Assembly: GCA_947496065.1 (NCBI GenBank)
Contig: CANMBF010000001.1
Coordinates: 5,443 to 69,442 of the forward strand
Origin: Bacteroidota bacterium
GTDB taxonomy: Bacteria; Bacteroidota; Bacteroidia; NS11-12g; UBA955
DNA: 64,000 nt
Direction of reading: 5' to 3'
Shown piece by piece: positions 13,473 to 25,363 of the stretch (position 1 is its first letter; each line of letters opens with the position of its first letter). A program made the translations under genes and the position numbers. The notes under the pieces were generated by a model that did no database searches, was not told the origin of the DNA, and worked only from the letters and a program-made list of their open reading frames with translations.

Positions 13473-14384
13473 TTGTACATGACTGAAAATAAAAAAATAA
13501 AAAATAGTCGGTGGGCAATTGTTCTATCAATAACACTTACCCCTGTTATGTTGTATTTAATGGGTCTGTGTTTGCCGAAATTACCTTATTCGCAAATGTC
13601 CATGGATGCATTTTGGGCAAAAAAAATAGCAAACCCAAAGAAGTATGACATCATATTTATTGGTGACTCTCGCATTTACAGGGGCATCAATCCTTCTATC
13701 GTTTCGGAAATGACAAATGCAAGTGTTTTGAACTATGGCTTTAGCGCTGCTGGTTTAGATTCAATTATTATTTATGAAGCCATTAAACAACTTGATACCA
13801 AAGGGAAAAAAATGGTTGTGTTTGGTATATCACCAAGTGCCTTCACCAATGAGGCCATAAAGAATGAACATTTTCATTCACTCAAAAAAATAAACAACAA
13901 AGATTTATGGATTCGTAAAAACATTTATCCTAAATTAACCTATTTCGATGCTTATAGTCTAGCTGAAATTAAAAAACATCTGAACAAAGAAGCCTATTCG
14001 CAGATCTGCAGAGCAGATGGTTTTATAGAAAGTAATAAGTCACCCGCAGATAGTAATGCTGCAATCAGCGCCTATGAAGATTATTTTAAGCACAATATGA
14101 TAAGCGATTTGCAACAACAAAAGTTTATTGCTTTGCTACAAATTCTGCAAACCAAAGGCATCAAATGTTATGCATTCAGAGTTCCAACGGCACTACCAAT
14201 GACTGTTTTGGAAAATAGTGTCTTTGACAAACAGCACTTAAAATTAAAAATCAATCAAACCGGAGCACATTGGTTTTTTATACCTCAAAATGGCTTTAAA
14301 AGTTATGATGGTAGCCATCTCAACGGAGCATCTGCAAATAAACTTTCACAAATCGTGGGAGATTCAATTCTAATTTATCACTAA
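13473..14384 (+). CDS. SGNH/AlgJ-DltD-like partner protein of the MBOAT acyltransferase
   Basis: 303 aa with one N-terminal TM segment. The FIGDSRIY (GDS) block resembles SGNH acyl-transfer proteins. It lies immediately downstream of the MBOAT gene. The start could be TTG 13473 or ATG 13479. Confidence 0.55.
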   Translation: MYMTENKKIKNSRWAIVLSITLTPVMLYLMGLCLPKLPYSQMSMDAFWAKKIANPKKYDIIFIGDSRIYRGINPSIVSEMTNASVLNYGFSAAGLDSIIIYEAIKQLDTKGKKMVVFGISPSAFTNEAIKNEHFHSLKKINNKDLWIRKNIYPKLTYFDAYSLAEIKKHLNKEAYSQICRADGFIESNKSPADSNAAISAYEDYFKHNMISDLQQQKFIALLQILQTKGIKCYAFRVPTALPMTVLENSVFDKQHLKLKINQTGAHWFFIPQNGFKSYDGSHLNGASANKLSQIVGDSILIYH

Positions 14385-14395
14385 TTTCGCAAGCA

Positions 14396-15580
14396 ATGAA
14401 AGTCGTATTTCTATTTGGAGGGCTCCCACATTATCTTAATAAAGTATTAAATAAAATTAATGCTGAGTCGGATATTGAAGTGGTGGTAATTGTGCCAGAA
14501 GGAAACAGCTTAACCTTTGGAAGTGGTGTTCATCAAAGCGAAGTCGGCATTGATTTTAAAGTGATTCGTTTGGTTGAATCCAGTGCATGGTATGGCAAAC
14601 CGTTTTTCAAAAATTTTTATAAAACGATTGCATCTGAAAAACCAGATGTTATCGTTACCGGATGGCCTTATTTTTTAGCTTATATGCTCATGCCCTTGCT
14701 ACTTTTAAGACTAAAAATAAAGGGTATTAAGCTATATGCTAGAGAAATTCCATTTACGGTTCCAGCCTATAATGAAACCTTTGAGGCATTTGAAAAGCGT
14801 TGTGTTGACGGCCAAAAAAATGAATTAATTTTTAAAAATGGATTGGCTTTCTGGTTATTAAAACTGATGAGAAAATACCTTTACACTGTAGTTTTTGATA
14901 AAGCGCTGCTTTATACCGAACAAGGTATAGATATCATTTACTCCTATGGCCTAGCAAAAGAAAATATTACGGTTACTTACAATTCTCCTGATACAGATGA
15001 AATTTTTGAAACGATTAAGGAGATTAAATTAAAACACCCTCATTTAACTAGTAAGCCACACCGATTACTACATATCGGTCGCTTAGTAAAATGGAAAAAC
15101 ATTGATCTTCTCATAAAAGCAGTACAAGTTCTAAAACCCAAATACCCTAATATTGAGCTAGCAATTATTGGTAAAGGTGAGGAGGAAGTAAACTTAAAAA
15201 CGCTTGTAAACACCTTGAATCTTACTGATAATATTTCGTTTTTAGGGGCTATTTATGAGGGAGAAGGTCAAACCATTGAGTTTTTAAAGTCTGGTGTATA
15301 TGTATTAGCGGGTATGGGAGGACTTTCAATTAATGAAGCCATGGCGCATAGTTTACCTATCATATGTTCGGTGGCCGATGGAACAGAAAAGCATTTGGTT
15401 TTTGAGGATAAAAATGGCTTTTATTTTAAAGATAGCAATCTTGAAAGTTTAGTGGATGCCATTGATAAAATGTTTACCTCAGATACTATTGAAATGGGGG
15501 CTAGGTCAAAAGCCATTATAGAACAAAAAATAAATCTGCCATTTGTAAGCTCGCAATTTATTGGCGCTTTGAGAAGTTAG
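14396..15580 (+). CDS. Glycosyltransferase family 4 (GT-B)
   Basis: 394 aa. It has LLHIGRLVKWKN, GKGEEE, and GGLSINEAMA...P.I......G..E......NG (E-x7-E-like). Confidence 0.7.
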   Translation: MKVVFLFGGLPHYLNKVLNKINAESDIEVVVIVPEGNSLTFGSGVHQSEVGIDFKVIRLVESSAWYGKPFFKNFYKTIASEKPDVIVTGWPYFLAYMLMPLLLLRLKIKGIKLYAREIPFTVPAYNETFEAFEKRCVDGQKNELIFKNGLAFWLLKLMRKYLYTVVFDKALLYTEQGIDIIYSYGLAKENITVTYNSPDTDEIFETIKEIKLKHPHLTSKPHRLLHIGRLVKWKNIDLLIKAVQVLKPKYPNIELAIIGKGEEEVNLKTLVNTLNLTDNISFLGAIYEGEGQTIEFLKSGVYVLAGMGGLSINEAMAHSLPIICSVADGTEKHLVFEDKNGFYFKDSNLESLVDAIDKMFTSDTIEMGARSKAIIEQKINLPFVSSQFIGALRS

Positions 15581-15584
15581 CTTC

Positions 15585-15624
15585 AAAAAAAAAGCCACCT
15601 GTATTGCTACAGGCGACTTTTTTT
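15585..15624. terminator. Bidirectional terminator hairpin between convergent genes
   Basis: An A-run, then GCCACCTGTA-ttgc-TACAGGCGAC (6 perfect bp plus partial pairing), then a T-run. It closes the polysaccharide locus. Confidence 0.6.
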
Positions 15625-15641: not shown

Positions 15642-15905
15642 CTATCTTTTGATAAATTTAGCAGATGTTAAGCTGCCATCATTGTTTAATATATTTAGAA
15701 AATAAATGCCTTTTACTAATTGTCTGATATCAAATTGTACATTAGACCCATTGATATTTGAAGTTGTTGTTAAAGTTACTGCTTTGCCATTGGCATCCAT
15801 AATGCTAATCGCTGATTCAACTTCTACTGTTTCGGTGAAACTTATATTTAAATAATCTGAAGTTGGGTTAGGGTATACACTTACTGTGCTGATAACATTG
15901 TTCAA
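15642..15905 (-). CDS. Orphan T9SS type-A C-terminal sorting domain ORF (CTD only; an expressed mini-protein or a gene remnant)
   Basis: 87 aa: VYPNPTSDYLNISF...ISIMDANGK......GIYFLNI....GSLTSAKFIKR is a complete Por/T9SS CTD. There is no signal peptide or cargo domain. The frame is closed by TGA immediately upstream, and the only available start is TTG. Confidence 0.45.
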   Translation of the reverse strand: MNNVISTVSVYPNPTSDYLNISFTETVEVESAISIMDANGKAVTLTTTSNINGSNVQFDIRQLVKGIYFLNILNNDGSLTSAKFIKR

Positions 15906-15959
15906 TCATATTTATTTTAGTTTTTAATCTTAAAGCTGTTTTAATTCTTAAAGACGGCA

Positions 15960-15967
15960 CAAATATA
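15960..15967 (-). promoter_or_regulatory. -7 promoter box TATATTTG upstream of the orphan CTD ORF
   Basis: Exact TAnnTTTG on the minus strand, 54 nt upstream of TTG 15905. Confidence 0.45.
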
Positions 15968-15969
15968 AG

Positions 15970-15987
15970 ATAGTACTTTTATACTAT
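15970..15987. promoter_or_regulatory. Palindromic operator candidate, ATAGTA-cttta..-TACTAT (TAGTA-N6-TACTA), copy C
   Basis: TAGTA (15971-15975), a 6-nt spacer, TACTA (15982-15986). The half-sites and spacing match the copies at 19173 and 19364. It abuts the -7 box at 15960-15967. Confidence 0.5.
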
Positions 15988-16232
15988 GTTCATAAACTAA
16001 GTATAAAACGGTAAAATATTTTGCAAAACGCTGTTTTACACTGTAATAATTTTTTATGGCACTAAGTACTTTTACACAATTAAAGAAATATATTTATAAT
16101 TTAGTATGAAATACTTTAAGGTTTTTAGCTCAAAAAGCGAATTTAAAAAAATTAAAAAATTACTAGCTAACTAAAAATTAATTGAGATTGAAATGAAATT
16201 TTTGACCCTAAAATTCCAAATTCAGTCGGCAT

Positions 16233-16264
16233 AAAAAAACCCCATTTGAAAAAACAAATGGGGT
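16233..16264 (-). terminator. Rho-independent terminator of the AOS-fusion/small-ORF transcription unit
   Basis: The minus strand reads CCCCATTTG-tttttt-CAAATGGGG followed by TTTTTTT. This is a 9-bp GC-containing stem in otherwise AT-rich DNA, 33 nt after the small ORF stop. Confidence 0.75.
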
Positions 16265-16296
16265 TCAAAATTTAAAATATGGTTAAGTTGTATTGC

Positions 16297-16548
16297 TTAT
16301 ATTTCTTTGTCTAAATCAAAATTTCTACAATAGAAATTAGCAACATAAGTAAGGGTTAATGGTTTGACATCTAAAGTATTACCCATATTATCAACCAGCA
16401 CCTCAACGAAATAATTGTAAATAGAATAAAGTTCTAATTTGAATCCTTTGGTAAGTTTTACTTCGCATACAAATAGCGATTTGTTGCTCAAGATTTGCAA
16501 CCTTGAGTTGTTGTTAAAAGTGTTTAATTCGAGTTGTGTAATCAGCAT
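16297..16548 (-). CDS. Small hypothetical protein co-transcribed with the AOS fusion (83 aa from ATG 16548; 104 aa if TTG 16611 is used)
   Basis: The ORF lies between the fusion-gene stop (16633) and the terminator. I recognise no family. The longer form adds a hydrophobic VIILLLLLW segment. Confidence 0.4.
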   Translation of the reverse strand: MLITQLELNTFNNNSRLQILSNKSLFVCEVKLTKGFKLELYSIYNYFVEVLVDNMGNTLDVKPLTLTYVANFYCRNFDLDKEI

Positions 16549-16632
16549 TATTTTAGTTTTGGATAGTTTTAAATTCCATAACAAAAGTAAAAGAATAATT
16601 ACTTTAAACAAAAATATTTTTAAATTTTACAA

Positions 16633-19098
16633 CTAATTGACAGCGTTTTCGCCCTCATAAACATTAACACTTTGATTACTTGATATTTGCATAGATTCTA
16701 TTACAGCTGCATTAAAGTGATCGTTGGCTTGCATGTAAGCAACAGTTTTATAAGCATCAGCACCCATTCTACGCTTTTCTAATGAAGCAGTAAATCCAAG
16801 ATTTATTGAAGTGCATTTTAAATAGTTGGCTCTCAAAATTACTTGATATAGTGCCTGACGGTAAACATTTATTTCAAATTGTTCAGATTTATCGACGCCA
16901 ATGAAAATAGCATTGTACACATCGCCTGATTTGTAATTGAACACAACGGCTACTTCTTTTAGTTCATCCTTGGCTTCGCCAGTTTTTAGCTTAACAGATA
17001 AAACTTCCCAATTGGGTGAATTGGCTATATTTTCAAATAAGTTAATGGGTAAATCAAACGTATTCAGTTTAAAACTGCTCCCTTTAATTTGGTTATAAAG
17101 TTTAAACCAATGCTTAATTTGTTGATCTGTAGGATTTTTAACAACCTCACATTCTATTAAATTGACGTGTTTTAAAACTTGACCTCTAAAATGCTTTCTT
17201 GCTTTGTGGGTCAAAGAAGCGATAAATTCAGTTTCATTGGTCCAAGTTAATTCCTGGTGCACATTTCTCTCTGGCATTTGGGTTTTAAAATAGCCATTAC
17301 CTAACATCGCTTTATCTAATTCTGTATTGCCATCATCAAAATCTCTCAACATAATAGAACCCGCATTGTATTTTTTCATTAAGGCAGAGGCCATCCAATA
17401 CAATTCGTTAAACGCTTGTTTTTTATATTCACTTTTTTCATTGATATAGACATGTCCACCTTCTGTTAGCAATGAACCGGTCATTACCATTAAAGAAGTT
17501 AGATAATAGGGATCGCTTGTTTTTCTTATTATTTCAATTTTATGAGAAATGGTTTCATGAGAAAGCATGTCATCTTTGCACAAAGCAGTTGTAAAGAAAG
17601 TTGCTAGCACAACTCTTTGGCTTTTGTCCTTTACTATGAGATAGTCAAATTCCCAATTGTTTTCAATCAAACTATTGTTTTTAAATGTTTTTTCAAGAAA
17701 TAACAAGCCTTCATAGTCAAAACTACCTTTTCCTTGAAAAATCGCATTCCACTCTTCCTTCTTGATTTCGGAAATGGATTGGTACTTTTCTAGAATTAAA
17801 TTAGATGGCTTAATAATTGGCTGGAAGGTGTCTTCTGTATTCGTTTCGCCTGGATTATCAATCTTAAATGCTTTATATATTTGGTCTCTAGAAATATTTT
17901 GTTCAAGTAAAACCTCATCAAAATGTCTAGCCATGGAGGTGATCATACCTTCAATTTGTTTAAATGTGTGCAATCTAGTAATGGTAAATCTCACACCTGT
18001 ATTTTTCATTGGCACTGCTGGAAAAGCACCAAGATTTGTGTAATAACCATCATCTAGCATTCTTTTGATTAATTGGTAACCTACCTTTGGTAAACAAACA
18101 CCAATAAAGAATACGGGTGAGTTTAATTCCTTAATAAGCGGTAAGCCAGCCTTCTTAATCATTAGGTTGGCAAACTTGATATTTTCTTGCAAGTCTTCTT
18201 GCATTTTTATTATTTCATCGGATAAATGTATATCAGCTGCTGCTAATGCTGCTCCTAATGCTGCAGGCTGCATAGGTCCAGAAGTAATCATTGGACCGCC
18301 GCAAGTTCTTACTAGGCTTGCCATTTCTTCATTAGGAAAAATCATAGCACCACCACCACTTGCAAAGGCTTTGTTCAAACTTGTAGTCAAAACCATTCTT
18401 TCGTGCAAATCATGATTTTGAAGTACAAATCCTCTTCCATTCTTGCCGAAACTACTCATGCCATGCGCATCGTCAACATAAAAGTTAAACTTAGGGTATT
18501 TATCTAATAAGTCATATATGGCATCAATAGGCGCGCCATCACCATACATTGAATAAATACCATCTGCCATATACCAAACCTTTTCGTACTTCTTGCTAAG
18601 TTGGATAATTCTATCTTCTAATAAGTCCATTCTATTATGTCTCAGTAATTCGATGAGAATTCCTTTTGGCTTTAGAAGTGTTGTCGCTGTTTGAATAGAA
18701 CTGTGTACCTGGTGGTCTAGAACTACAGCATCTTTTTCTCCTATTATAACAGGTAATGTAGAGATGTGCCCCAACGTTGTCGTAGGAGTAACTACACAAT
18801 AACCTCCAAATAACTGGTTTAACTTAGATTCAAGTTGTTGATAATGTATGGAGGATAAATAAGCCCTTGAAGCTGAAAATTGTGTTCCGTAACCTTCCAA
18901 AGCTTTAATAGCGCCAGCCTTTAAACGCGGGTCAAATTCTAAACCAAGATAACTACAAGAGCTAAAATTGACTAGTTCTTTGTCGTTGATTTTTAGCATA
19001 TTACCTTCTAATATTTCATTAGAAACATTTAGATGTAAGATGCCACTGTTCTTTCCATCGGTAATCACGTCATTGATGGTTGTAAGAAAATTGTTCAT
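16633..19098 (-). CDS. Fusion protein: N-terminal PLP-dependent alpha-oxoamine synthase (BioF/Kbl/Spt/CqsA family) plus C-terminal FemAB/BioF2-like GNAT-fold acyltransferase domain
   Basis: 821 aa. The AOS part (about aa 40-400) has SCSYLGL, HSSIQ, YVDDAHGMSSFGKNGRG, and the PLP lysine in TTSLNKAFASGGG. The C-terminal ~380 aa (WN.IF......FDYEGL.FLE..., ...YRQALYQ.I..A......INLGFTA) resemble the DUF482/Acetyltransf_6 type. Confidence 0.8.
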   Translation of the reverse strand: MNNFLTTINDVITDGKNSGILHLNVSNEILEGNMLKINDKELVNFSSCSYLGLEFDPRLKAGAIKALEGYGTQFSASRAYLSSIHYQQLESKLNQLFGGYCVVTPTTTLGHISTLPVIIGEKDAVVLDHQVHSSIQTATTLLKPKGILIELLRHNRMDLLEDRIIQLSKKYEKVWYMADGIYSMYGDGAPIDAIYDLLDKYPKFNFYVDDAHGMSSFGKNGRGFVLQNHDLHERMVLTTSLNKAFASGGGAMIFPNEEMASLVRTCGGPMITSGPMQPAALGAALAAADIHLSDEIIKMQEDLQENIKFANLMIKKAGLPLIKELNSPVFFIGVCLPKVGYQLIKRMLDDGYYTNLGAFPAVPMKNTGVRFTITRLHTFKQIEGMITSMARHFDEVLLEQNISRDQIYKAFKIDNPGETNTEDTFQPIIKPSNLILEKYQSISEIKKEEWNAIFQGKGSFDYEGLLFLEKTFKNNSLIENNWEFDYLIVKDKSQRVVLATFFTTALCKDDMLSHETISHKIEIIRKTSDPYYLTSLMVMTGSLLTEGGHVYINEKSEYKKQAFNELYWMASALMKKYNAGSIMLRDFDDGNTELDKAMLGNGYFKTQMPERNVHQELTWTNETEFIASLTHKARKHFRGQVLKHVNLIECEVVKNPTDQQIKHWFKLYNQIKGSSFKLNTFDLPINLFENIANSPNWEVLSVKLKTGEAKDELKEVAVVFNYKSGDVYNAIFIGVDKSEQFEINVYRQALYQVILRANYLKCTSINLGFTASLEKRRMGADAYKTVAYMQANDHFNAAVIESMQISSNQSVNVYEGENAVN

Positions 19099-19124
19099 AA
19101 CTTATGGATAATTAATTATTGATA

Positions 19125-19132
19125 CAAAGATG
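19125..19132 (-). promoter_or_regulatory. Near-consensus -7 box (CATCTTTG) for the AOS-fusion gene
   Basis: 7/8 match to TAnnTTTG, 26 nt upstream of ATG 19098. Confidence 0.3.
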
Positions 19133-19171
19133 AGGGATTAAAATCATTAATCAAACAGTTTTCAACATTTT

Positions 19172-19189
19172 TTAGTATTTTTTTACTAG
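19172..19189. promoter_or_regulatory. Palindromic operator candidate TAGTA-tttttt-TACTA, copy A
   Basis: TAGTA (19173-19177), N6, TACTA (19184-19188). It lies 75-90 bp upstream of the fusion-gene ATG, roughly at -45 to -65 relative to the putative promoter. Confidence 0.5.
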
Positions 19190-19362
19190 GTCTATGTGTT
19201 TTTTTATCTAAGAATATGAAAATAAACAAATTACATATTTAAAAAAAAATTATAATTATAATTGCCTGTTTTCAAATGCTTTAATTTAATTTTTTTAGCA
19301 TTTTTACACTTTTTAACCCCTATATTTAACTATTTATAGCTTGTATTATTATCACTATTTAT

Positions 19363-19380
19363 CTAGTATTATAATACTAG
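19363..19380. promoter_or_regulatory. Perfect 18-bp palindrome CTAGTATTATAATACTAG (TAGTA-N6-TACTA), copy B
   Basis: Self-complementary over all 18 nt. It sits in the centre of the ~510-bp divergent intergenic region and can be read as a 7-2-7 inverted repeat. Confidence 0.55.
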
Positions 19381-19579
19381 TTTTTTTACATGTATTTTTA
19401 CTATAATTCTATTAATCATGTTTTTATAGTTATTTTATAAAAATTATAATTTTCATATAAAGACATCAAATTGCAAACCGGCCAAATTTGTTAATAAGAT
19501 GTTATTGGATTTAATGATGTGTTATTTTGAAAAAATCGTCGGGCAATTTGAAAAACAACAATAAAATTCATTTTATTCC

Positions 19580-19587
19580 TATATTTG
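19580..19587 (+). promoter_or_regulatory. -7 promoter box TATATTTG for the STAS/kinase/regulator operon
   Basis: Exact TAnnTTTG, 23 nt upstream of ATG 19611. This position argues against the longer track ORF start at 19527. Confidence 0.55.
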
Positions 19588-19610
19588 CATCTAATACAGC
19601 AAATATTAAA

Positions 19611-19997
19611 ATGACCAAAGCAATGGAAATTTATGAAAATCAACAAATTAAGATGGAAATTATAGATGGCATCATCCATGCCCACTACAAAGCAGGTCTT
19701 AAAATTACTTTACCAGATGCCAAAACAATCGTTGCAGAGCGATTGAATTTACTAAAAGCCAGAGTACTTCCTGGTCTTGTTTTGGATGGTGGTGTTGTAA
19801 GCATGGATAAAGCAGCCCGCGACTATTTTTCATCTCCAGAGGGAATTCAAGGTTTAAAATCAGTTGCCATTGTTGAAAATTCTTTCTTTAGCAAAATGTT
19901 AATTAACTTTTTCATGCGCATTACCAATGCCTCTATTAAAGTGAAAGCTTTTAGCAATGAGGCAGAAGCTTTGGAGTGGTTAAAAAAAGATGCTTAA
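19611..19997 (+). CDS. STAS/SpoIIAA-like small protein
   Basis: 128 aa from ATG 19611. The C-terminal pattern ...KSVAIVENSFFSKM..NFF.....A.IKVKAF.NE.EALEWL is typical of SpoIIAA-like/STAS proteins, which often precede sensor kinases in Bacteroidota. Confidence 0.55.
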   Translation: MTKAMEIYENQQIKMEIIDGIIHAHYKAGLKITLPDAKTIVAERLNLLKARVLPGLVLDGGVVSMDKAARDYFSSPEGIQGLKSVAIVENSFFSKMLINFFMRITNASIKVKAFSNEAEALEWLKKDA

Positions 19998-20043
19998 CCA
20001 AATTAAACCTCTAAAATAATTGACTGTATAAAAATAACTAGAC

Positions 20044-21201
20044 TTGAAAGATATTAATAATTTTGACTTGGACGAGCGCTTCATGCAGCTCGAAGATGTA
20101 CTACTAGCCTATTCACATGGAGATTTTTCAAAAAAACTCTCTATTTCTGATAGGTTAGATCCCATAGATACTGTGATGTCTGGAATAAACATGCTTGGAG
20201 AGGAACTTGAAGAGACAACTATAAAAAGGGACTTTTTTAACTCGGCGTTTCACTCTATTACAGATAGTTTAGTGGTGATTAATAATTCGGGTATTATTAT
20301 AGATTTAAACGAAAGTTTCATTTGTCTGCTTGAATTACAGAAAGAGGATATTATTGGCAAGAATTTAACAAGTTTTTTAAAGTTTAAAAGTTTTGAGAAG
20401 ACCATTCAATCCTTATATAAGAATCAAAAAACAATCGATTTCGAATCCGAAATTCAAACTTCGCAAGATAAAAAAATAATGGTTGAATGCCATGTTTCTG
20501 TGATTGATAATAACAAATGCCATTCTTTGGTAAAAATTCACGATTTAACCTATAAAATTCAACAGGAAGCATCAAGAATTGCCACCATTATTAAAACACA
20601 GGAAGAGGAAAGAAATCGAGTTGCCTCAGATTTACATGATAGCATTGGACAGCAAATATCTGCTTTAAAATTTTATTTTGATTCTATTCAAAAGCAAAAA
20701 GATGATAAGCTGAGAACAGTGCTTTTGAAAAAGACTGAATCTTTGATTGATAACGTGGCAGATGAAATCAGAAATATTTGCTTCCAATTAATGCCAAGAT
20801 CTGTTGAAAAATTTGGATTATCCGATTCTATTAAACAATTGGCCGACATCATTCAATTTAGTACTGGTATTCAATTTGATTTGAAATTACAAGAGTCAAA
20901 AATAAAAATTGACTCCAATGTTTCGATGTCTGTTTACAGAATTATACAAGAGTTTGTAAATAACTCTATTAAGCATGCCAAATGCAAGAATATAAAGGTT
21001 AATTTTGAGGTCAAACCAAAAGTATTAACGCTAATAATGATCGACGATGGTGTTGGTTTTGGAGAATCTACAAGTAAAAGAAAAGGCAATGGATTAGACA
21101 ACATTAACTTGCGGGTCAAATACCTAAATGGAGAAGTTGAATTCATTTCAGAAAAAGATAAGGGCGTTATATTGAATATTAGCATACCTTTGAACTTATA
21201 A
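20044..21201 (+). CDS. Cytoplasmic sensor histidine kinase (PAS + HisKA_3 + HATPase_c, NarX/DegS class)
   Basis: 385 aa with a TTG start and no TM segments. It has a PAS-like block (FHSITDSLVVINNSGIIIDLNESF...IGKN), the H-box EERNRVASDLHDSIGQQ, the N-box IIQEFVNNSIKHA, and the G-box DDGVGF...GNGL.N. Confidence 0.8.
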   Translation: MKDINNFDLDERFMQLEDVLLAYSHGDFSKKLSISDRLDPIDTVMSGINMLGEELEETTIKRDFFNSAFHSITDSLVVINNSGIIIDLNESFICLLELQKEDIIGKNLTSFLKFKSFEKTIQSLYKNQKTIDFESEIQTSQDKKIMVECHVSVIDNNKCHSLVKIHDLTYKIQQEASRIATIIKTQEEERNRVASDLHDSIGQQISALKFYFDSIQKQKDDKLRTVLLKKTESLIDNVADEIRNICFQLMPRSVEKFGLSDSIKQLADIIQFSTGIQFDLKLQESKIKIDSNVSMSVYRIIQEFVNNSIKHAKCKNIKVNFEVKPKVLTLIMIDDGVGFGESTSKRKGNGLDNINLRVKYLNGEVEFISEKDKGVILNISIPLNL

Positions 21202-21205
21202 CATT

Positions 21206-21922
21206 ATGCAAAAACTAGTAAAAATATTGATTGTAGATGACCATCCAATGATTAGAGATGGTTTAAAAACCATGCTTGAGATAGGATGTGAAGACATGGT
21301 TTTCAAAGTATTTGATTGCGATAATACTGAAGAAGCTGTTGAGTATCTAAAAAATGAAAAAATGAAAGTCGCTTTAGTTGATTATCAGTTAATTGATCTT
21401 GATGGTGCCTTAGTTACTTCAGCGCTAATGGAAGTGAACCCCAAAATTAACATTTTAGGCATTTCAAATTATAATGAAATAAACCACATTCATGATATGT
21501 TAAAGGCCGGAGCAAAAGGTTATACGTTAAAAAATATTTCTTCAGAAAACCTTTTTAACGGTATAAAAATCTTATTGAATGGCGGAACATTCTTCTCTCC
21601 AGAGGTAGCGCATCTGCTAGCCAATCAGTACTATAAAAAATTAACTGAAAAATCAGGTAAAAAGAAAGGCCCTAACTTCATTAGCAATTCTGAACAAACT
21701 GATGGCAACGAGCTTTTAGATAGACTTTCAAAAAGAGAAATAGAAATTTTAACATGCATTGCAAACGAAATGACGAATGAGGAAATTGCGGTAAAACTTG
21801 AATTAAGCAAAAGAACAGTCGACAACCACCGTCAAAACATGTTGAATAAACTTAAAGTAAAAAACTCTATGGGGTTACTACTTATAGCAATGAAAGCTGG
21901 TTTATTGGAATACAAAAAGTAG
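21206..21922 (+). CDS. NarL/FixJ(LuxR)-family response regulator
   Basis: 238 aa. The REC domain has ILIVDDHPMIRDGL, ..LVDYQL.DLDG, and KAGAKGY. A long basic linker follows, then the GerE HTH LSKREIEILTCIANEMTNEEIA..L.LS.RTVDNHRQN...KL. Confidence 0.85.
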   Translation: MQKLVKILIVDDHPMIRDGLKTMLEIGCEDMVFKVFDCDNTEEAVEYLKNEKMKVALVDYQLIDLDGALVTSALMEVNPKINILGISNYNEINHIHDMLKAGAKGYTLKNISSENLFNGIKILLNGGTFFSPEVAHLLANQYYKKLTEKSGKKKGPNFISNSEQTDGNELLDRLSKREIEILTCIANEMTNEEIAVKLELSKRTVDNHRQNMLNKLKVKNSMGLLLIAMKAGLLEYKK

Positions 21923-21957
21923 CACCTAATTATTTTACACCTTTTATTAAATGCTAG

Positions 21958-21988
21958 GTTTTATGCCTATTTGTCATAAAACTTTATT
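21958..21988 (+). terminator. Terminator-like hairpin after the response-regulator gene
   Basis: GTTTTATG-cctatttgt-CATAAAAC (8-bp stem) followed by TTTATT. Confidence 0.45.
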
Positions 21989-22017
21989 AGCATCAATATT
22001 GTTATTATTTAACCGTC

Positions 22018-22716
22018 ATGAACAAATCAAATGAATTTCAAAAATATGCCACTGGGCATTTAGGCATTAACAGCCTCACTCTCGATCGTTATATTCAAAA
22101 TGCTACTCCACAAGTCATAACGAATTTAACACCTAATATTATTGAAGAAAGGCCCTTAAATATTGCGGCAATGGATATTTTTTCAAGATTAATGATGGAT
22201 AGAATTATATTTCTTGGTGTACCTATTAACGATGAGGTAGCCAATATCGTTATGGGTCAACTTTTATTTTTAGAAAGCACCAATCCAAACAGAGACATTC
22301 AAATTTATATCAATAGTCCAGGAGGCAGTGTATATGCAGGCTTAGGAATATATGATACGATGCAATTTATTACCAGTAATGTAGCAACTATTTGTACAGG
22401 AATTGCAGCGAGTATGGCTGCTGTGCTGATGTGTGCCGGCGAAAAAGGTAAAAGAACTGCTCTAAAACACAGCCGTGTAATGATTCACCAACCATTAGGC
22501 GGTGTTCAAGGACAGGCAACAGAAATAGAAATAACTTACAGAGAAATTTCAAAGTTAAAAACAGAGCTTTATGATATTATCGCGCACCATAGCGGACAAA
22601 CATTCGAAAAAGTTGAAAAAGATAGCGATAGAGACTATTGGATGACTTCTGAAGAGGCAAAAGCGTATGGTATGGTCGATGATATTCTTATACGCAGCAA
22701 AGACAAAGTAAAATAA
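22018..22716 (+). CDS. clpP: ATP-dependent Clp protease proteolytic subunit
   Basis: 232 aa. It has RIIFLG..I.D..AN....QLLFLES, the catalytic Ser in GIAASMAAVL, and the His in RVMIHQP.GG. Confidence 0.9.
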   Translation: MNKSNEFQKYATGHLGINSLTLDRYIQNATPQVITNLTPNIIEERPLNIAAMDIFSRLMMDRIIFLGVPINDEVANIVMGQLLFLESTNPNRDIQIYINSPGGSVYAGLGIYDTMQFITSNVATICTGIAASMAAVLMCAGEKGKRTALKHSRVMIHQPLGGVQGQATEIEITYREISKLKTELYDIIAHHSGQTFEKVEKDSDRDYWMTSEEAKAYGMVDDILIRSKDKVK

Positions 22717-23954
22717 TGGCAAGTAAAAAATCAGGTTCCTTTTGTTCTTTTTGTGGCAAACCCAAAGAAGAGGCAACAATGTTAATTTCAGGCATTGAGG
22801 CCAATATTTGTGATGCTTGCGTTGAACAAGCTTCTAAAATTGTAGATGTTGAATTGGGAGGAGTGGCCAAAAAAAGAACCTCAAAGGATAGCGATTTTAA
22901 AATAAACTTACCAAAGCCAAATGAAATTAAAAAACATTTGGATGAATACGTCATTGGTCAAGATCAAGCCAAAAAAGTATTAGCCGTGGCTGTATACAAT
23001 CACTACAAAAGAGTGATGCACAACCCAAATAATGAGGACATCGAGATTGAAAAATCAAATGTATTAATGGTTGGGGAAACTGGAACTGGTAAAACTTTAC
23101 TGGTTCGAACACTCGCCAAAGCATTAAAGGTGCCTTTTTGTATTGCAGATGCAACGGTTCTTACTGAAGCAGGATATGTTGGAGAAGATGTCGAAAGTGT
23201 CATCTCTCGCTTATACCAAGCATCAGATTATGATCTTGAAGCAACTCAACGCGGTATTGTTTACATTGATGAAATAGATAAAATTGCGCGTAAGGGCGAT
23301 AATCCATCTATTAGTCGTGATGTGAGCGGTGAAGGTGTTCAACAGGGTTTATTAAAGTTGTTAGAGGGCACTGTTGCTAATATTGCACCAGAAGGCGGTA
23401 GAAAGCATCCTGATCAAAAATTTGTTAAAATTGATACGCGCAACATTTTATTTATATGTGGGGGGGCTTTTAATGGAATCGAAAAGTTAATTGCACGCAG
23501 ATTAAATAATTCATCGGTTGGATTTTTAACACAAGGGAAAGAAAGAATAATGGATATCAACCTTATTGAACAAATCGCCCCAACAGACTTAAAGAGTTTT
23601 GGCTTAATTCCAGAAATCATCGGTAGAATGCCTATGATTACTTTCTTACAGCCATTGGACAGAGAAGCCCTTAAAAATATTTTAATTAAACCAAAAAATG
23701 CGTTACTGAAGCAATATATCAAATTAATGGAAATTGAAGGGATATTATTAGACTTTGATAAAAAAGCAATTGAGCTAATTGTTAGCAAAGCAGTTGAATT
23801 TAAATTAGGTGCGCGAGGTCTTCGCACTATTTGCGAAAAATTGATGTTAGATGTGATGTTTGACGCACCTTCTAAAAATGATAAAGCCATTACAATAACA
23901 GCCGATATGGTGGTCGAAAAGTTGGCCGACCTTGATGCTTCGAAAGCAGCATAA
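22716..23954 (+). CDS. clpX: ATP-dependent Clp protease ATP-binding subunit ClpX
   Basis: 412 aa. It has the C4 zinc finger CSFCGK...CDAC, Walker A GETGTGKT, Walker B VYIDEIDK, and the pore loop GYVGEDVE. Confidence 0.92.
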   Translation: MASKKSGSFCSFCGKPKEEATMLISGIEANICDACVEQASKIVDVELGGVAKKRTSKDSDFKINLPKPNEIKKHLDEYVIGQDQAKKVLAVAVYNHYKRVMHNPNNEDIEIEKSNVLMVGETGTGKTLLVRTLAKALKVPFCIADATVLTEAGYVGEDVESVISRLYQASDYDLEATQRGIVYIDEIDKIARKGDNPSISRDVSGEGVQQGLLKLLEGTVANIAPEGGRKHPDQKFVKIDTRNILFICGGAFNGIEKLIARRLNNSSVGFLTQGKERIMDINLIEQIAPTDLKSFGLIPEIIGRMPMITFLQPLDREALKNILIKPKNALLKQYIKLMEIEGILLDFDKKAIELIVSKAVEFKLGARGLRTICEKLMLDVMFDAPSKNDKAITITADMVVEKLADLDASKAA

Positions 23955-23965
23955 ACTTACAAAAA

Positions 23966-23991
23966 GGGCCTGAAATTCAGGCCCTTTTTTA
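23966..23991 (+). terminator. Rho-independent terminator after clpX
   Basis: GGGCCTGA-aat-TCAGGCCC followed by TTTTTT. Confidence 0.8.
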
Positions 23992-24012
23992 TTAAATACC
24001 CTCGATTTCGCC

Positions 24013-24020
24013 TACCTTTG
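24013..24020 (+). promoter_or_regulatory. -7 promoter box TACCTTTG upstream of the helicase gene
   Basis: Exact TAnnTTTG, 17 nt before GTG 24038. Confidence 0.5.
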
Positions 24021-24037
24021 CAGACTAATAAATACCT

Positions 24038-25363
24038 GTGACTTTCGACCAACTTAATATAACTAGACCCCTTCTGAATGCATTGAATGATTTAGGTTTT
24101 GACCATCCTACACCTATTCAAGCGCAAATTTTTCCTGTGATTATGTCAGGCAAAGATGTAGTTGGAATTGCGCAAACAGGCACAGGTAAAACATTTGCCT
24201 ATTTATTGCCTTTGTTAAGACAATTAAAATATTCAGAACAACAACATCCTCGCATTCTAATCCTTGTTCCAACAAGGGAGCTTGTCATACAAGTGGCCGA
24301 AGAAATTAGCAAACTAACTACCTATATGAAAGTTAGGGTAACAGGAATCTATGGAGGTGTCAATATTAATACCCAAAAAACTGCAGTGTTTAAAGGATTA
24401 GACCTATTGGTTGCAACACCAGGGCGTTTATTAGATCTAGCACTCAATGGTGTATTAAGATTTAAAACCATACAAACTTTAGTCATAGATGAAATGGATG
24501 AAATGTTAACACTTGGATTTCGTTCTCAACTGACGAGAATAATGGATTTATTGCCCATTAAAAGACAAAACTTACTATTCTCTGCTACTAATTCACCAGA
24601 TATTGAAACCCTTATAGCCACCTTCTTTAATAACCCAGTAAAAGTTGAAATTGCTACCTCTGGTACGCCTCTATTACAAATTATTCAAAAAGGCTATAAA
24701 GTTCCCAATTTTCACACAAAAATTAATTTTTTAGAATATTTACTAAAAGACAAATCTGCCTTCAATAAGGTGCTAGTATTTGTTAGTACTAAGAAAATTG
24801 CTGATCAGGTTTATGATTTAATAAAGACTAAATTTATAGGTGAGATTGATGTCATGCATGCGAATAAATCTCAAAACTACCGACTGAATGCTATCAAATT
24901 TTTTGATGAAGGTGAATTTAGAGTTTTGATCGCAACAGATATCATTGCGCGTGGTTTAGATATAAAAGATATTAGCCATGTAATAAACTTTGATATACCT
25001 CAAGAACCTGAAGATTATATGCATCGTATTGGCAGAACAGGTAGAGCTCAAAAAGCTGGTGATTCAATTACTTTTATTATGGAATCTGACCAACACTACC
25101 AATACGCTATCGAAAACCTAATGGCTACCAAAATTCCAATGGAAGAAATGCCAAAAGAAGTTGTAATATCTAAGCTTTTATTAGAAGAAGAATTACCACA
25201 AAAGCCTGAAAAGGATTACTTAAAAGACGTTAGAAAGAAGGTAGTGAAGAGTACTGCATTTCAACAAAAAAGTGCAAAAAACAGCAAGATCAATCTTGGG
25301 GGATCTTATAAACGAATAATTAAAGCAAAATACAAGAAACCTAAAAGTAAAGGCAATAATTAA
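24038..25363 (+). CDS. DEAD-box ATP-dependent RNA helicase (RhlE-like)
   Basis: 441 aa with a GTG start. It has the Q-motif PTPIQ, AQTGTGKT, PTRELV, DEMDEM (a DEAD variant), SAT, HRIGRTGRA, and a Lys-rich tail. Confidence 0.88.
   Translation: MTFDQLNITRPLLNALNDLGFDHPTPIQAQIFPVIMSGKDVVGIAQTGTGKTFAYLLPLLRQLKYSEQQHPRILILVPTRELVIQVAEEISKLTTYMKVRVTGIYGGVNINTQKTAVFKGLDLLVATPGRLLDLALNGVLRFKTIQTLVIDEMDEMLTLGFRSQLTRIMDLLPIKRQNLLFSATNSPDIETLIATFFNNPVKVEIATSGTPLLQIIQKGYKVPNFHTKINFLEYLLKDKSAFNKVLVFVSTKKIADQVYDLIKTKFIGEIDVMHANKSQNYRLNAIKFFDEGEFRVLIATDIIARGLDIKDISHVINFDIPQEPEDYMHRIGRTGRAQKAGDSITFIMESDQHYQYAIENLMATKIPMEEMPKEVVISKLLLEEELPQKPEKDYLKDVRKKVVKSTAFQQKSAKNSKINLGGSYKRIIKAKYKKPKSKGNN

What the first reader, a model, noticed from the sequence alone, without database searches (positions are those of the whole stretch)
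15642..21988. Candidate undescribed module: alpha-oxoamine-synthase/acyltransferase fusion divergent from a STAS / soluble PAS kinase / LuxR regulator set, tied together by a shared palindrome
What the sequence shows: a compact block sits between two terminator hairpins (15585-15624 and 21958-21988) and is unrelated to the flanking polysaccharide and clpPX genes. (i) On the minus strand there is an 821-aa fusion of a PLP-dependent alpha-oxoamine synthase (AOS) to a ~380-aa FemAB/BioF2-like GNAT-fold domain, then a small ORF and a strong terminator. (ii) Divergently there is a STAS/SpoIIAA-like protein, a histidine kinase with no TM segment (PAS + HisKA_3), and a NarL/LuxR response regulator. 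(iii) Three copies of TAGTA-N6-TACTA lie in the AT-rich DNA on both sides of the fusion operon. (iv) An orphan T9SS-CTD ORF lies behind one of those palindromes. Established knowledge: AOS-family enzymes next to dedicated sensors define the alpha-hydroxyketone quorum-sensing systems CqsA/CqsS (Vibrio) and LqsA/LqsS/LqsR (Legionella). Inference: this may be a Bacteroidota analogue in which an AOS-derived (possibly N-acylated) alpha-aminoketone is made and sensed intracellularly. Alternatively, the two-component system may control production of an AOS-derived lipid. I know of no described system with this architecture. Adjacency alone could still be coincidental.
Basis: partly seen in the sequence, partly recalled or inferred. 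Interest (0 to 1): 0.8.

Follow-up and report, generated by a model that had tools for sequence, protein, structure and literature searches.

The report
Conserved aminoketone-synthase and sensor gene cassette
This is a real, widely conserved and undescribed five-gene cassette of Bacteroidota, pairing a two-domain enzyme that probably makes a small amino-ketone compound with its own cytoplasmic sensor and regulator, so it is a good candidate for a chemical signalling system in a phylum where none of this kind is known.

Summary
The 821-aa protein is an alpha-oxoamine synthase (AOS) fused to a Fem-like tandem-GNAT domain. It sits divergently from a DUF7793/STAS protein, a soluble PAS-HisKA_3 kinase and a REC-GerE regulator.

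In 80 related loci (40-96% fusion identity) the STAS gene is present in 70, the kinase in 68 and the regulator in 66. An unannotated ~80-aa protein follows the fusion in 51. Nothing else is conserved.

The palindrome TAGTA-N6-TACTA is conserved at the same positions in the close clade. Distant clades carry TAnGT-N6-ACnTA, about 230-fold enriched in the divergent intergenic region. Operator type covaries with one residue of the regulator's recognition helix.

The third palindrome precedes a ~400-aa T9SS cargo gene in relatives. The window's "orphan CTD" is a deletion remnant of that gene.

Loci that lack the trio still place other histidine kinases next to the fusion.

The product and the sensed ligand are untested. 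My best reading is a self-regulated signal-synthase/sensor circuit (about 0.45). The main rival is a regulated metabolite or lipid. No literature describes this cassette.

The parts
15587..15624 (.). Bidirectional terminator hairpin (A-run, stem-loop, T-run) that marks the left boundary of the block
   Evidence: -13.6 kcal/mol, z=-4.3; I3
15642..15905 (-). 87-aa remnant of a T9SS cargo gene. Only the C-terminal sorting domain is left. It starts with TTG, has no signal peptide, and is out of frame with the nearby ATG at 15909-15907. Probable pseudogene.
   Evidence: Por_Secre_tail E=4e-18. 88% identical to residues 318-404 of the intact 404-aa gene in L001.
15971..15986 (.). Palindrome P3, TAGTACTTTTATACTA, 66 nt upstream of the cargo-gene remnant. 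Putative regulator operator.
   Evidence: The same palindrome lies 65-85 nt upstream of intact cargo genes in L001, L002, L006, L007 (two genes) and L010, and at the matching position near the contig end in L003.
16065..16080 (.). Degenerate second copy (AGTACTTTTACACAAT) upstream of P3
   Evidence: D3. A similar element is present in L001.
16237..16266 (-). Intrinsic terminator ending the fusion/small-protein operon
   Evidence: 12-bp stem, 5 GC pairs, T-run; -17.6 kcal/mol, z=-4.0
16297..16548 (-). Small conserved protein, 83 aa, in no Pfam family. Fifth member of the cassette. Function unknown.
   Evidence: An HMM built from 19 homologues finds it directly downstream of the fusion in 51 of 80 loci plus the window. 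The gene caller gives 83 aa. No Pfam hit.
16633..19098 (-). Bifunctional enzyme, 821 aa. N-terminal PLP-dependent alpha-oxoamine synthase (residues ~1-400, nt 17899-19098), flexible linker (~400-432), C-terminal Fem-like tandem-GNAT transferase (residues ~433-806, nt 16681-17802).
   Evidence: AOS TM 0.87-0.89 to Alb29, KBL, SPT; FemX, FemA, Sbb17
19173..19188 (.). Palindrome P2, TAGTATTTTTTTACTA, 75-90 nt upstream of the fusion ATG. Putative operator of the fusion promoter.
   Evidence: Conserved at about -92 in L001, L004, L006 and L010, with one mismatch in L002, L005 and L011.
19291..19310 (.). Degenerate copy (TTTTTTAGCATTTTTACACT) between P2 and P1
   Evidence: D1
19364..19379 (.). Palindrome P1, TAGTATTATAATACTA, about 280 nt upstream of the fusion ATG and about 230 nt upstream of the STAS ATG. 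Putative operator of the regulatory operon.
   Evidence: Conserved at about -261 to -284 in L001-L005, L010 and L011.
19611..19997 (+). DUF7793 / SpoIIAA-like (STAS-fold) protein, 128 aa (the gene caller starts it at TTG 19548). First gene of the regulatory operon and the partner most tightly linked to the fusion.
   Evidence: 3bl4; 70 of 80 loci
20044..21201 (+). Soluble histidine kinase, 385 aa. Conserved N-terminal helical segment, PAS, HisKA_3 (H-box ...SDLHDS...), HATPase_c.
   Evidence: 68 loci; no TM segment; the N-terminal 60 aa and the H-box are conserved, the PAS domain is variable
21206..21922 (+). NarL/LuxR-type response regulator, 238 aa (REC + GerE HTH; recognition helix ...SKRTVDNHRQNML...)
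   Evidence: 66 loci; recognition-helix residue covaries with operator type
21951..21993 (+). Weak AT-rich hairpin after the regulator gene. A possible terminator, but not convincing.
   Evidence: -13 kcal/mol, z=-3.1. Not found by the terminator scan.

Best explanation
The block is a self-contained, self-regulated cassette of five genes, found mainly in Bacteroidota (Chitinophagales, Flavobacteriales, Cytophagales).

Shown by comparative genomics: the fusion enzyme, the small ~80-aa protein, the DUF7793/STAS protein, the soluble PAS-HisKA_3 kinase and the REC-GerE regulator travel together. GTA-N4-6-TAC inverted repeats occupy the divergent promoter region. In the window's clade they also occupy the promoters of T9SS-secreted proteins.

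Inferred mechanism:
1. The AOS domain condenses an amino acid with an acyl-thioester to give an alpha-aminoketone.
2. The fused Fem-like tandem-GNAT domain immediately caps the reactive amine with an acyl or aminoacyl group. This yields a small, membrane-permeant N-substituted aminoketone, or a heterocycle derived from it.
3. No exporter, carrier protein or reductase is needed.
4. The product is sensed in the cytoplasm by the PAS kinase, with the STAS protein as co-sensor or modulator.
5. The kinase phosphorylates the LuxR-type regulator.
6. The regulator dimer binds the palindromes and controls the enzyme operon, its own operon and secreted-protein genes.

This would be an autoinducer-like feedback circuit that works like CqsA/CqsS or LqsA/LqsS/LqsR but is built from different parts.
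For: - Synteny. In 80 loci from GTDB species representatives, ORF clustering finds the fusion in 79, STAS in 70, the kinase in 68 and the regulator in 66, and no other conserved neighbour. The kinase sits in the divergent operon in 60 loci and the regulator in 59. The small protein is present in 51.
- Flanks. The window's clpP, clpX and GT flanks are shared only with L002 and L003.
- Co-divergence. Identities of STAS, kinase and regulator fall together with fusion identity (Spearman 0.55-0.64, p<1e-6).
- Operators, close clade. TAGTA-N6-TACTA is conserved at about -92 and -284.
- Operators, distant clades. TAnGT-N6-ACnTA occurs at 3.29 per kb in the fusion-STAS intergenic region (34 of 56 loci) against 0.0145 per kb elsewhere.
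- Covariation. The recognition helix reads TVDNHR in all TAGTA (N6/N5) loci, including the distant L058, and TVD[T/S]HR in nearly all TAnGTA-N4 loci.
- Other kinases. Where the trio is missing, the fusion still abuts other kinases. Cytophagales have STAS plus soluble PAS-HisKA-REC hybrid kinases. L067, L074, L076 and L078 have other HisKA kinases. L066 has a REC-only protein.
- C-domain. This subfamily is almost exclusively found fused at the C-terminus of ~800-aa proteins (564 representative clusters).
- Catalytic residues. The AOS residues are invariant: Lys243 in TSLNK, His132 and DDAHG 209-213.
- Solubility. All cassette proteins lack TM segments.
- Literature. Nothing describes it.
Against: - No chemistry was tested. 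The amino-acid and acyl substrates, the donor of the GNAT domain (acyl-CoA or aminoacyl-tRNA) and the product are all unknown.
- Nothing shows that the kinase or the STAS protein binds the product. A two-component system that responds to an unrelated cue would give the same synteny and autoregulatory operators.
- The AOS domain is nearer to SPT, KBL and AONS than to CqsA. That fits a lipid or metabolite role equally well.
- Operator spacing differs between clades (N4, N5, N6), and some loci have no recognisable exact site (L083; 22 of 56).
- The helix-operator covariation is partly confounded by phylogeny.
- In the cargo promoter the palindrome lies only about 4 nt upstream of a TAnnTTTG-like box. 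That position would suit repression rather than activation.
- DUF7793 also occurs without the fusion (L085).
Confidence: 0.45

Rival explanations
1. Regulated effector, not a signal. The STAS/PAS-kinase/LuxR system senses some other intracellular cue (redox state, a metabolite, envelope or nutritional state). It switches on the fusion enzyme, whose product is an end-product such as an antibiotic-like or protective metabolite, together with secreted T9SS proteins. The product is not the ligand of the kinase.
For: - The same synteny and autoregulatory operators are expected under this model.
- PAS domains sense many cues.
- The regulon contains secreted proteins.
- The kinase PAS region is poorly conserved, while its N-terminal segment is highly conserved.
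- DUF7793 can occur without the enzyme.
Against: - The enzyme is paired with a kinase in essentially every lineage, even where the kinase family is replaced (HisKA_3 by HisKA hybrids). That is more easily explained if the kinases read the enzyme's product.
- No tailoring, resistance or export genes are conserved, which is unusual for an antibiotic-type product.
Confidence: 0.3
2. Membrane-lipid enzyme. The AOS domain acts like serine palmitoyltransferase and the GNAT domain like a bacterial ceramide synthase. Together they make an N-acyl-3-keto long-chain base (an oxidised-ceramide-like or capnine-like lipid) for envelope remodelling under control of the two-component system.
For: - The best characterised sequence relatives of the AOS domain include SPTs: SerpalmtaseCFB 163 bits and 3a2b E=5e-31.
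- AOS followed by N-acylation of the keto intermediate is the order suggested for Caulobacter ceramide synthesis (PMC11324152).
- Bacteroidota make sphingolipids and sulfonolipids (PMC9304779).
Against: - All SPT, BioF and KBL equivalog scores are far below their cut-offs: 163 against 640, 150 against 426, 137 against 460.
- No ketoreductase, ACP, acyl-ACP synthetase, flippase or head-group gene is conserved nearby.
- The enzyme has no membrane segment.
- The distribution is patchy, the model sphingolipid producers are not among the hits, and some genomes carry two paralogous copies (L021 and L077).
- The closest structural relatives of the C-domain are aminoacyl-tRNA transferases, not lipid N-acyltransferases.
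Confidence: 0.15
3. Coincidental adjacency. The enzyme gene and the regulatory genes are unrelated neighbours and the palindromes are chance features of AT-rich DNA.
For: Only that no experiment links them.
Against: - Conserved in about 60-70 of 80 loci down to 40% identity, while the flanks are not conserved.
- The palindromes are positionally conserved, about 230-fold enriched, and unlikely by local-composition shuffles.
Confidence: 0.01

Closest known systems
CqsA/CqsS (Vibrio) and LqsA/LqsS/LqsR (Legionella) alpha-hydroxyketone quorum sensing
   Same: An AOS-family PLP enzyme is encoded next to a dedicated histidine kinase and response regulator. A single enzyme, with no exporter, would suffice to make a diffusible product.
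   Different: - The AOS domain fails the CqsA/LqsA equivalog (75 bits against 428), and CqsA structures are among its weakest AOS matches (E about 3e-8).
- The enzyme carries an extra 400-aa Fem-like tandem-GNAT domain.
- The sensor is a soluble PAS-HisKA_3 kinase, not a multi-pass membrane kinase.
- The regulator is NarL/LuxR type.
- There are two extra conserved partners (DUF7793/STAS and an ~80-aa protein).
Mycobacterium tuberculosis BioF2 (Rv0032)
   Same: Also an AOS-type PLP enzyme with an extra domain. It is not a biotin enzyme and remains uncharacterised (PMC12910592). It lends its name to the 'BioF2-like' acetyltransferase domain, PF13480 (from my own knowledge).
   Different: - The extra domain in Rv0032 is N-terminal; here it is C-terminal.
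- Rv0032 did not appear among the listed relatives of the C-domain (best 150 only).
- No associated two-component system is known for Rv0032.
Fem aminoacyl-tRNA transferases (FemX, FemA) and aminoacyl-tRNA-dependent peptide synthases Sbb17/Sba18
   Same: They are the best structural matches of the C-domain: tandem GNAT fold, E about 3e-11 to 1e-9, TM 0.5-0.7. They belong to the same Pfam clan as the PF13480 and PF04339 hits of homologues.
   Different: - Only 8-13% sequence identity, with no sequence-level PDB hit.
- Acetyl-CoA-dependent tandem GNATs (MAB_4324, VipF) score almost as well, so the donor substrate cannot be assigned.
DPO/VqmA (Vibrio) and AI-3-type pyrazinones
   Same: From my own knowledge: these are signals built from an alpha-aminoketone joined to an amino acid, sensed in the cytoplasm by a PAS domain coupled to a LuxR-type HTH. 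Here an aminoketone synthase is fused to a Fem-like (possibly aminoacyl-transferring) domain, and PAS and LuxR-HTH are split across a kinase and a regulator.
   Different: - In those systems the aminoketone comes from threonine dehydrogenase, and no dedicated coupling enzyme is known.
- VqmA is a one-component regulator.
- The resemblance here is functional speculation. It is not homology-tested.
Bacterial Spt + ceramide synthase (Caulobacter) and SulA/CapB sulfonolipid enzymes (Bacteroidota)
   Same: An AOS condensation followed by N-acylation (PMC11324152; PMC9304779).
   Different: - Those are separate enzymes encoded with ACP, reductase and ligase genes.
- The equivalog scores are not met here, and no such partner genes are conserved.

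Membership tests
Alpha-oxoamine synthase (fold-type I PLP, CoA-dependent acyltransferase) superfamily | Aminotran_1_2 domain and AOS fold | tested here: met
   PF00155 E=1e-18. Foldseek TM(target) 0.86-0.89 to Alb29, KBL, SPT, AONS and ALAS.
Alpha-oxoamine synthase superfamily | Catalytic residues: Schiff-base Lys, PLP-stacking His, Asp-x-x-His | tested here: met
   Lys243 (TSLNK), His132 and D209-D210-A211-H212 are invariant in 60 homologues. The assignment to these roles is by motif position and my own knowledge, not by a residue-level structural alignment.
CqsA/LqsA alpha-hydroxyketone autoinducer synthase (NCBIfam NF005526/PRK07179) | Score above the equivalog cut-off (428 bits) | tested here: not met
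   75.5 bits. CqsA PDB chains reach only E about 3e-8.
CqsA/LqsA systems | Adjacent membrane-bound CqsS/LqsS-type sensor kinase | tested here: not met
   The kinase has no TM segment and has PAS + HisKA_3 architecture.
CqsA/LqsA systems | Product is an alpha-hydroxyketone or amino-enone autoinducer | not testable with these tools
   Needs enzymology and LC-MS.
Serine palmitoyltransferase (NF047600 SerpalmtaseCFB), BioF (TIGR00858), KBL (NF005394) | Score above the equivalog cut-off | tested here: not met
   162.7 against 640, 150 against 426, 137.5 against 460 bits. The best model is the uncharacterised subfamily PRK07505, at 256.6 against 342.
Fem / Acetyltransf_6 (BioF2-like) tandem-GNAT transferases | Pfam PF13480 or PF04339 match | tested here: inconclusive
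   The window's own C-domain is below threshold. 13 of 17 homologous C-domains hit PF13480 (best 1.9e-8) and 2 hit PF04339. Precomputed hits exist for many full-length homologues.
Fem / Acetyltransf_6 tandem-GNAT transferases | Tandem GNAT fold | tested here: met
   AF2 model with pLDDT 85.5. Top PDB hits are FemX 6snr and 1ne9, FemA 1lrz, Sbb17 9wqx and the MprF C-domain.
Fem / Acetyltransf_6 tandem-GNAT transferases | Aminoacyl-tRNA as donor substrate | not testable with these tools
   Acetyl-CoA tandem GNATs score nearly as well.
NarL/LuxR-class two-component system | HisKA_3 + HATPase_c kinase with H-box; REC + GerE regulator with the acidic pocket | tested here: met
   Pfam hits. The H-box 'DLHDS' is conserved in 61 kinases. 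The DD pair and 'VALVD' Asp are read from the sequence.
STAS / SpoIIAA anti-sigma-antagonist partner-switching proteins | STAS-type fold family membership | tested here: met
   DUF7793 107.7 bits, SpoIIAA-like 29.1 bits against a cut-off of 25. PDB 3bl4 E=2e-4.
STAS / SpoIIAA partner-switching proteins | Phosphorylatable Ser/Thr in the D-S-S-G-type motif, and an RsbW/SpoIIAB-type kinase partner | tested here: inconclusive
   The corresponding stretch reads 'GVVSMDKAAR' (family consensus gv.s.dK.AR), with Lys where SpoIIAA has the phospho-Ser. That placement is by eye, not by structural alignment. The neighbouring kinase is a HisKA_3 histidine kinase, not an RsbW type.
T9SS cargo protein | N-terminal signal peptide plus a cargo domain plus a C-terminal sorting domain | tested here: not met
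   Only the CTD remains in the window. The intact 404-aa form is in L001.

The most novel reading that the evidence does not exclude
This is the first dedicated small-molecule autoinducer system of Bacteroidota.

- The AOS domain makes an alpha-aminoketone.
- The fused Fem-like domain aminoacylates it from aminoacyl-tRNA (or acylates it). The resulting N-aminoacyl-aminoketone cyclises to a pyrazinone-type signal.
- The signal is read in the cytoplasm by the DUF7793/STAS protein and the PAS kinase.
- It drives positive feedback and the expression of T9SS-secreted proteins through the LuxR-type regulator.
- Signal and operator specificities have diversified between clades: N4, N5 and N6 palindromes, paralogous cassettes in one genome, and a variable PAS domain.
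Probability: 0.25. Interest if true: 0.9.

Novelty: new variant of a known kind. Interest (0 to 1): 0.75.

Why it matters
Bacteroidota are abundant in soil, freshwater, oceans and guts, yet no phylum-specific small-molecule signalling system with a dedicated synthase and receptor has been described for them.

This cassette gives a concrete, compact and testable candidate:
- one enzyme gene to express for the product;
- one soluble kinase and one STAS protein to test for binding;
- defined palindromic operators for the regulator;
- cultured carriers to work in: Crocinitomix catalasitica ATCC 23190, Ferruginibacter paludis CECT 8366 and Ginsengibacter hankyongi BR5-29.

It would also assign a function to several uncharacterised items:
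- an AOS-tandem-GNAT enzyme architecture, whose only noted counterpart (M. tuberculosis BioF2) is itself unexplained;
- DUF7793;
- a family of ~80-aa proteins that is in no database family.

If the Fem-like domain uses aminoacyl-tRNA on a small-molecule amine, that would be a new biosynthetic logic for aminoketone- or pyrazinone-type compounds.

Tried and rejected
- Sequence search of the C-domain profile against the PDB found nothing, even at E<=10. Fold comparison was needed.
- A word-indexed homologue search with the C-domain alone returned only fragments of the same fusion family, with no named stand-alone relatives.
- Pfam and NCBIfam searches of the small protein, including 14 homologues at E<=1, found nothing.
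- Four literature searches (DUF7793; AOS + Bacteroidetes + N-acyltransferase; oxoamine synthase + GNAT + two-component; CqsA/LqsA + Bacteroidetes) found no description of this cassette.
- An Rfam scan of the window found no RNA family.
- The search for the operator upstream of the distant cargo homologue in L022 found none. The independent locus L083 has no exact match either. The operator model therefore does not cover every lineage.
- The first fold search, with the full-length model, was swamped by AOS hits. A separate C-domain model was required.
- I considered a LOV-type PAS domain. I rejected it on inspection because there is no NCRFLQ-like motif.
- I considered that the small protein might be an ACP. 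I rejected it because it has no DSL motif and no PP-binding hit.
- I did not attempt substrate prediction for the AOS domain from active-site residues. The family is too divergent from characterised members for that to be reliable.

Full report
**1. What is in the sequence**

- **Fusion enzyme.** The 821-aa minus-strand protein (16633-19098) has an Aminotran_1_2 domain at residues 41-373.
  - Against NCBIfam it scores best with the uncharacterised AOS subfamily PRK07505 (256.6 bits, below its cut-off of 342).
  - It falls far below the equivalog cut-offs of serine palmitoyltransferase, BioF, KBL, ALAS and the CqsA/LqsA autoinducer synthase (75.5 against 428).
  - Its closest solved relatives by sequence are Alb29, Sphingobacterium SPT and KBL (E 1e-34 to 1e-30). 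CqsA is among the weakest (E about 3e-8).
- **Regulatory genes.** The divergent genes encode three proteins.
  - A DUF7793/SpoIIAA-like protein.
  - A PAS_9 + HisKA_3 + HATPase_c kinase with no hydrophobic segment.
  - A Response_reg + GerE regulator.
- **Palindromes.** TAGTA-N6-TACTA occurs exactly three times in the 64-kb window, at 15971, 19173 and 19364, against 0.04 expected. When only the two AT-rich intergenic regions are shuffled, the mean is 0.005 and none of 20,000 shuffles reaches three.
- **Terminators.** The left boundary hairpin and the terminator after the small ORF are convincing. The right-hand 'terminator' is a weak AT-rich hairpin.

**2. The fusion enzyme**

More than 2,000 proteins match the fusion at E<=1e-5. 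The top 120 are all about 810-830 aa with the same architecture, and NCBI calls some of them 'bifunctional aminotransferase class I/II-fold PLP-dependent enzyme/GNAT family N-acetyltransferase'.

An AF2 model of the whole protein (60-sequence alignment) has pLDDT 85.5 and pTM 0.70, with a disordered linker at about 418-431.

- **N-domain.** It superposes on AOS enzymes with TM(target) 0.86-0.89. The PLP lysine (K243 in TSLNK), His132 and the DDAHG motif are invariant in 60 homologues.
- **C-domain.** Modelled on its own (pLDDT 85.5), residues about 433-806 form a tandem GNAT.
  - The best PDB matches are aminoacyl-tRNA-dependent transferases: FemX 6snr and 1ne9, FemA, the peptide synthases Sbb17/Sba18 and the MprF C-domains.
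  - Acetyl-CoA tandem GNATs (MAB_4324, VipF) follow closely, all at TM about 0.45-0.7 and about 10% identity.
  - Thirteen of 17 homologous C-domains hit PF13480 Acetyltransf_6 and two hit PF04339 FemAB_like.
  - A profile search of PDB sequences finds nothing.
  - An exhaustive HMMER search of 1.84 billion representatives finds only 564 clusters. In nearly all full-length cases the domain sits at positions about 430-810 of an ~800-aa protein.
  - This GNAT subfamily therefore exists essentially only as the C-terminal partner of this AOS. The donor substrate (acyl-CoA or aminoacyl-tRNA) cannot be decided from these data.

**3.

A scan of one genome per GTDB species returned 591 confirmed relatives. 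The 80 best loci (40-96% identity) were fetched with 10-kb flanks.

- **tblastn with the window's proteins.** STAS-kinase-regulator lies divergently upstream of the fusion throughout Chitinophagales and Flavobacteriales-type MAGs. It is also present in the cultured strains Crocinitomix catalasitica ATCC 23190, Ginsengibacter hankyongi BR5-29 and Ferruginibacter paludis CECT 8366. The window's clpP, clpX, DEAD and GT/MBOAT flanks recur only in the two nearest relatives.
- **Unsupervised ORF clustering.** This gives the same picture: fusion in 79 loci, STAS in 70, kinase in 68, regulator in 66, and no other family in more than 14 loci apart from antisense artefacts.
- **The small protein.** An HMM built from the small ORF finds it directly after the fusion in 51 loci plus the window. 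It matches no Pfam family.
- **Co-divergence.** The identities of the partners fall together with that of the fusion (Spearman 0.55-0.64).
- **Independent metagenome contigs.** Contigs reached through the STAS protein show the same cassette (L083). One orphan DUF7793 sits next to T9SS proteins (L085).
- **Caveat on taxonomy.** A few loci are labelled as proteobacterial, cyanobacterial or Margulisbacterial MAGs. Some of these may be mis-binned contigs.

**4. Loci that lack the trio**

These are informative because the fusion still sits beside signal-transduction genes.

- In Cytophagales (L069, L072, L080) the fusion keeps the STAS gene but is flanked by soluble PAS-HisKA-HATPase-REC hybrid kinases.
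- In L067 it is followed by a low-molecular-weight phosphatase and a TPR-HisKA kinase.
- In L076 it follows a Reg_prop/Y_Y_Y kinase and precedes a T9SS HYR protein.
- L074 has HisKA kinases on both sides.
- L078 has a hybrid kinase.
- L066 has a stand-alone receiver.

The constant theme is 'this enzyme next to a histidine kinase', even when the kinase family changes. That is why I favour a product-sensing relationship over a generic regulatory one.

**5. The palindromes are conserved operators**

- **Close clade.** In L001-L011 (66-96% identity), TAGTA-N6-TACTA, exact or with one mismatch, sits at about -92 and about -284 from the fusion start. These positions are orthologous to window 19173 and 19364.
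- **Distant clades.** The shorter intergenic region carries TA(n)GTA-N4-TAC(n)TA, for example TACGTATTTATACCTA, at about -130 to -160. A second, more degenerate site (TCnGTA-N4-TACnGA or CAGTATTTAATGGGTTG) abuts a TTG that looks like the Bacteroidota -33 element.
- **Enrichment.** The pattern TAnGT-N6-ACnTA occurs at 3.29 per kb in this intergenic region (34 of 56 loci) against 0.0145 per kb in the rest of the loci.
- **Sites outside the region.** Several of the few outside hits lie just downstream of the regulator gene, in front of ~146-aa ORFs, or upstream of fusions in loci without the trio.
- **Spacing variants.** L044, L054 and L058 have N5 variants such as CTAGTATTAAATACTAG.
- **Covariation.** The regulator's recognition helix reads ...TVDNHR... 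in every TAGTA (N6/N5) locus, including L058 whose fusion is only 44% identical. It reads ...TVD(T/S)HR... in almost all TAnGTA-N4 loci. This is what co-evolution of a regulator with its operator would give. The signal is partly phylogenetic, and binding itself is untested.

**6. The third palindrome and the 'orphan' CTD ORF**

- **Intact genes in relatives.** In L001, L002, L006, L007 (two genes) and L010, the same palindrome lies 65-85 nt upstream of genes for ~360-410-aa proteins, and L003 keeps it near its contig end. These proteins have a signal peptide, an N-domain with no Pfam or PDB match, and a T9SS sorting domain.
- **Copy number and extra sites.** The genes are often in two or three tandem copies. 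Several have a further N5-type site about 117 nt upstream.
- **The window's remnant.** The 87-aa ORF is 88% identical to the last 87 residues of the L001 protein. Alignment shows that promoter, palindrome and 5' leader are retained, but about 950 nt of coding sequence (codons 1 to about 316) are missing.
- **Coding status.** The remnant starts at a TTG that is out of frame with the nearby ATG. It has no signal peptide, so it is most likely a pseudogene.
- **Other copies.** No intact copy lies elsewhere in the window.
- **Scope.** The regulon of this clade thus includes secreted proteins. This cargo family is clade-specific, not part of the universal cassette. It occurs in L001, L006, L007 and L010, and distantly in L022, where I saw no operator.

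**7. How it most likely works**

Shown:
- a five-gene cassette with conserved divergent architecture;
- conserved inverted repeats in its promoters;
- an intact AOS catalytic set;
- a Fem-like tandem GNAT fused to the AOS;
- soluble signalling proteins throughout.

Inferred:
- The AOS domain condenses an amino acid with an acyl thioester.
- The free amine of an alpha-aminoketone is reactive, so the fused transferase probably caps it at once with an acyl or aminoacyl group.
- No carrier, reductase or exporter is conserved, so the product is probably small and membrane-permeant.
- The PAS kinase senses it in the cytoplasm, perhaps with the STAS protein acting through the kinase's highly conserved N-terminal 60 residues.
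- The kinase phosphorylates the LuxR-type regulator, which acts at the palindromes.

I give about 0.9 to 'functionally coupled, co-regulated cassette', and about 0.45 to the specific signal-synthase/sensor circuit.

The main rival (about 0.3) is a system that senses another cue and uses the enzyme product as an effector. A membrane-lipid role (about 0.15) is suggested by the SPT-like relatives. It is weakened by the missing pathway partners, the patchy distribution and the Fem-like second domain.

**8. Comparison with known systems**

- **Cqs and Lqs.** The cassette may work like these systems, but it is not a member. The CqsA equivalog test and the membrane-sensor feature both fail.
- **M. 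tuberculosis BioF2 (Rv0032).** This is the closest noted counterpart to the enzyme architecture. It is an AOS with an extra N-terminal domain, is not a biotin enzyme and has no known function (PMC12910592). The domain order is reversed there.
- **DPO/VqmA and AI-3 pyrazinones.** From my own knowledge, these are built from an aminoketone plus an amino acid and are read by a cytoplasmic PAS/LuxR-HTH protein. They offer an attractive chemical and sensory parallel if the Fem-like domain uses aminoacyl-tRNA. This is speculation and forms my 'novel case'.
- **Literature.** No paper in the searchable library mentions DUF7793 or this cassette.

**9. Verdict**

The finding is real and the module claim is supported. 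The two corrections noted in sections 1 and 6 apply: the orphan CTD is a deletion remnant, and the right-hand terminator is weak. Two additions came out of this work: the small protein is a fifth conserved member, and the operators are conserved and covary with the regulator.

The function remains inferred. I rate it as a new variant of a known kind of system (a synthase plus a dedicated two-component sensor), with high interest because it is compact, widespread, uncharacterised and directly testable in cultured strains.

Noticed in passing
L026:6697-7137(-), L029:6684-7097(-), L030:6675-7112(-); L047:6933-7424(-), L060:6590-7072(-), L019:5381-5821(-): Two unrelated families of ~140-160-aa ORFs lie just downstream of the regulator gene. 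Each is preceded by an exact TAnGT-N6-ACnTA operator. They may be further clade-specific regulon members. Their function is unknown.
   Followed up: partly
L040:12526-13766, L032:9293-10541, L050:12438-13653, L041:14482-15255, L033, L038, L039: In Chitinophagaceae/Ferruginibacter loci the small ORF is followed by one or two short AraC-type (HTH_18) genes and a MauE/DoxX-like membrane protein with a conserved CxC motif.
   Followed up: partly
L014:6695-9750, L060:9027-9801, L068:591-1501: These loci carry tandem paralogues of the DUF7793/STAS gene (three copies in L014, two in L060 and L068) upstream of the fusion.
   Followed up: no
L085:6001-6438: An orphan DUF7793 gene has no fusion, kinase or regulator nearby, but sits next to T9SS cargo proteins. 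The STAS protein is therefore not strictly confined to the cassette.
   Followed up: no
L021 and L077 (both contigs of MAG nzgw121): One genome carries two divergent fusion paralogues (50% and 41% identity to the window). One has the full trio and the other has only a STAS gene.
   Followed up: no
L002:13181-14257: The palindrome-preceded T9SS gene of L002 has the same sorting domain as in L001 but a different N-terminal cargo domain. Together with the deletion in the window, this makes the position a hot spot of variation.
   Followed up: partly
window 12060-15580: An MBOAT (470 aa), an unknown 303-aa protein and a GT1-family glycosyltransferase form the end of a polysaccharide-type cluster that continues leftwards (methyltransferase, epimerase, flippase in L081). 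It is shared only with L002.
   Followed up: no
window 22018-25363: clpP, clpX and a DEAD-box helicase follow the regulator gene. They are conserved next to the cassette only in L002 and L003, so they are unrelated to it.
   Followed up: no
window 50086-50517 (-): A weak tblastn match (24% identity, E=8e-4) to the C-terminal part of the L010 cargo protein. It is probably another T9SS-type protein elsewhere in the window.
   Followed up: no
L083:1-2032 and 8312-12378: In this locus the cassette is flanked by very large (3861 aa and at least 1631 aa) CHU_C/T9SS-type surface proteins.
   Followed up: no
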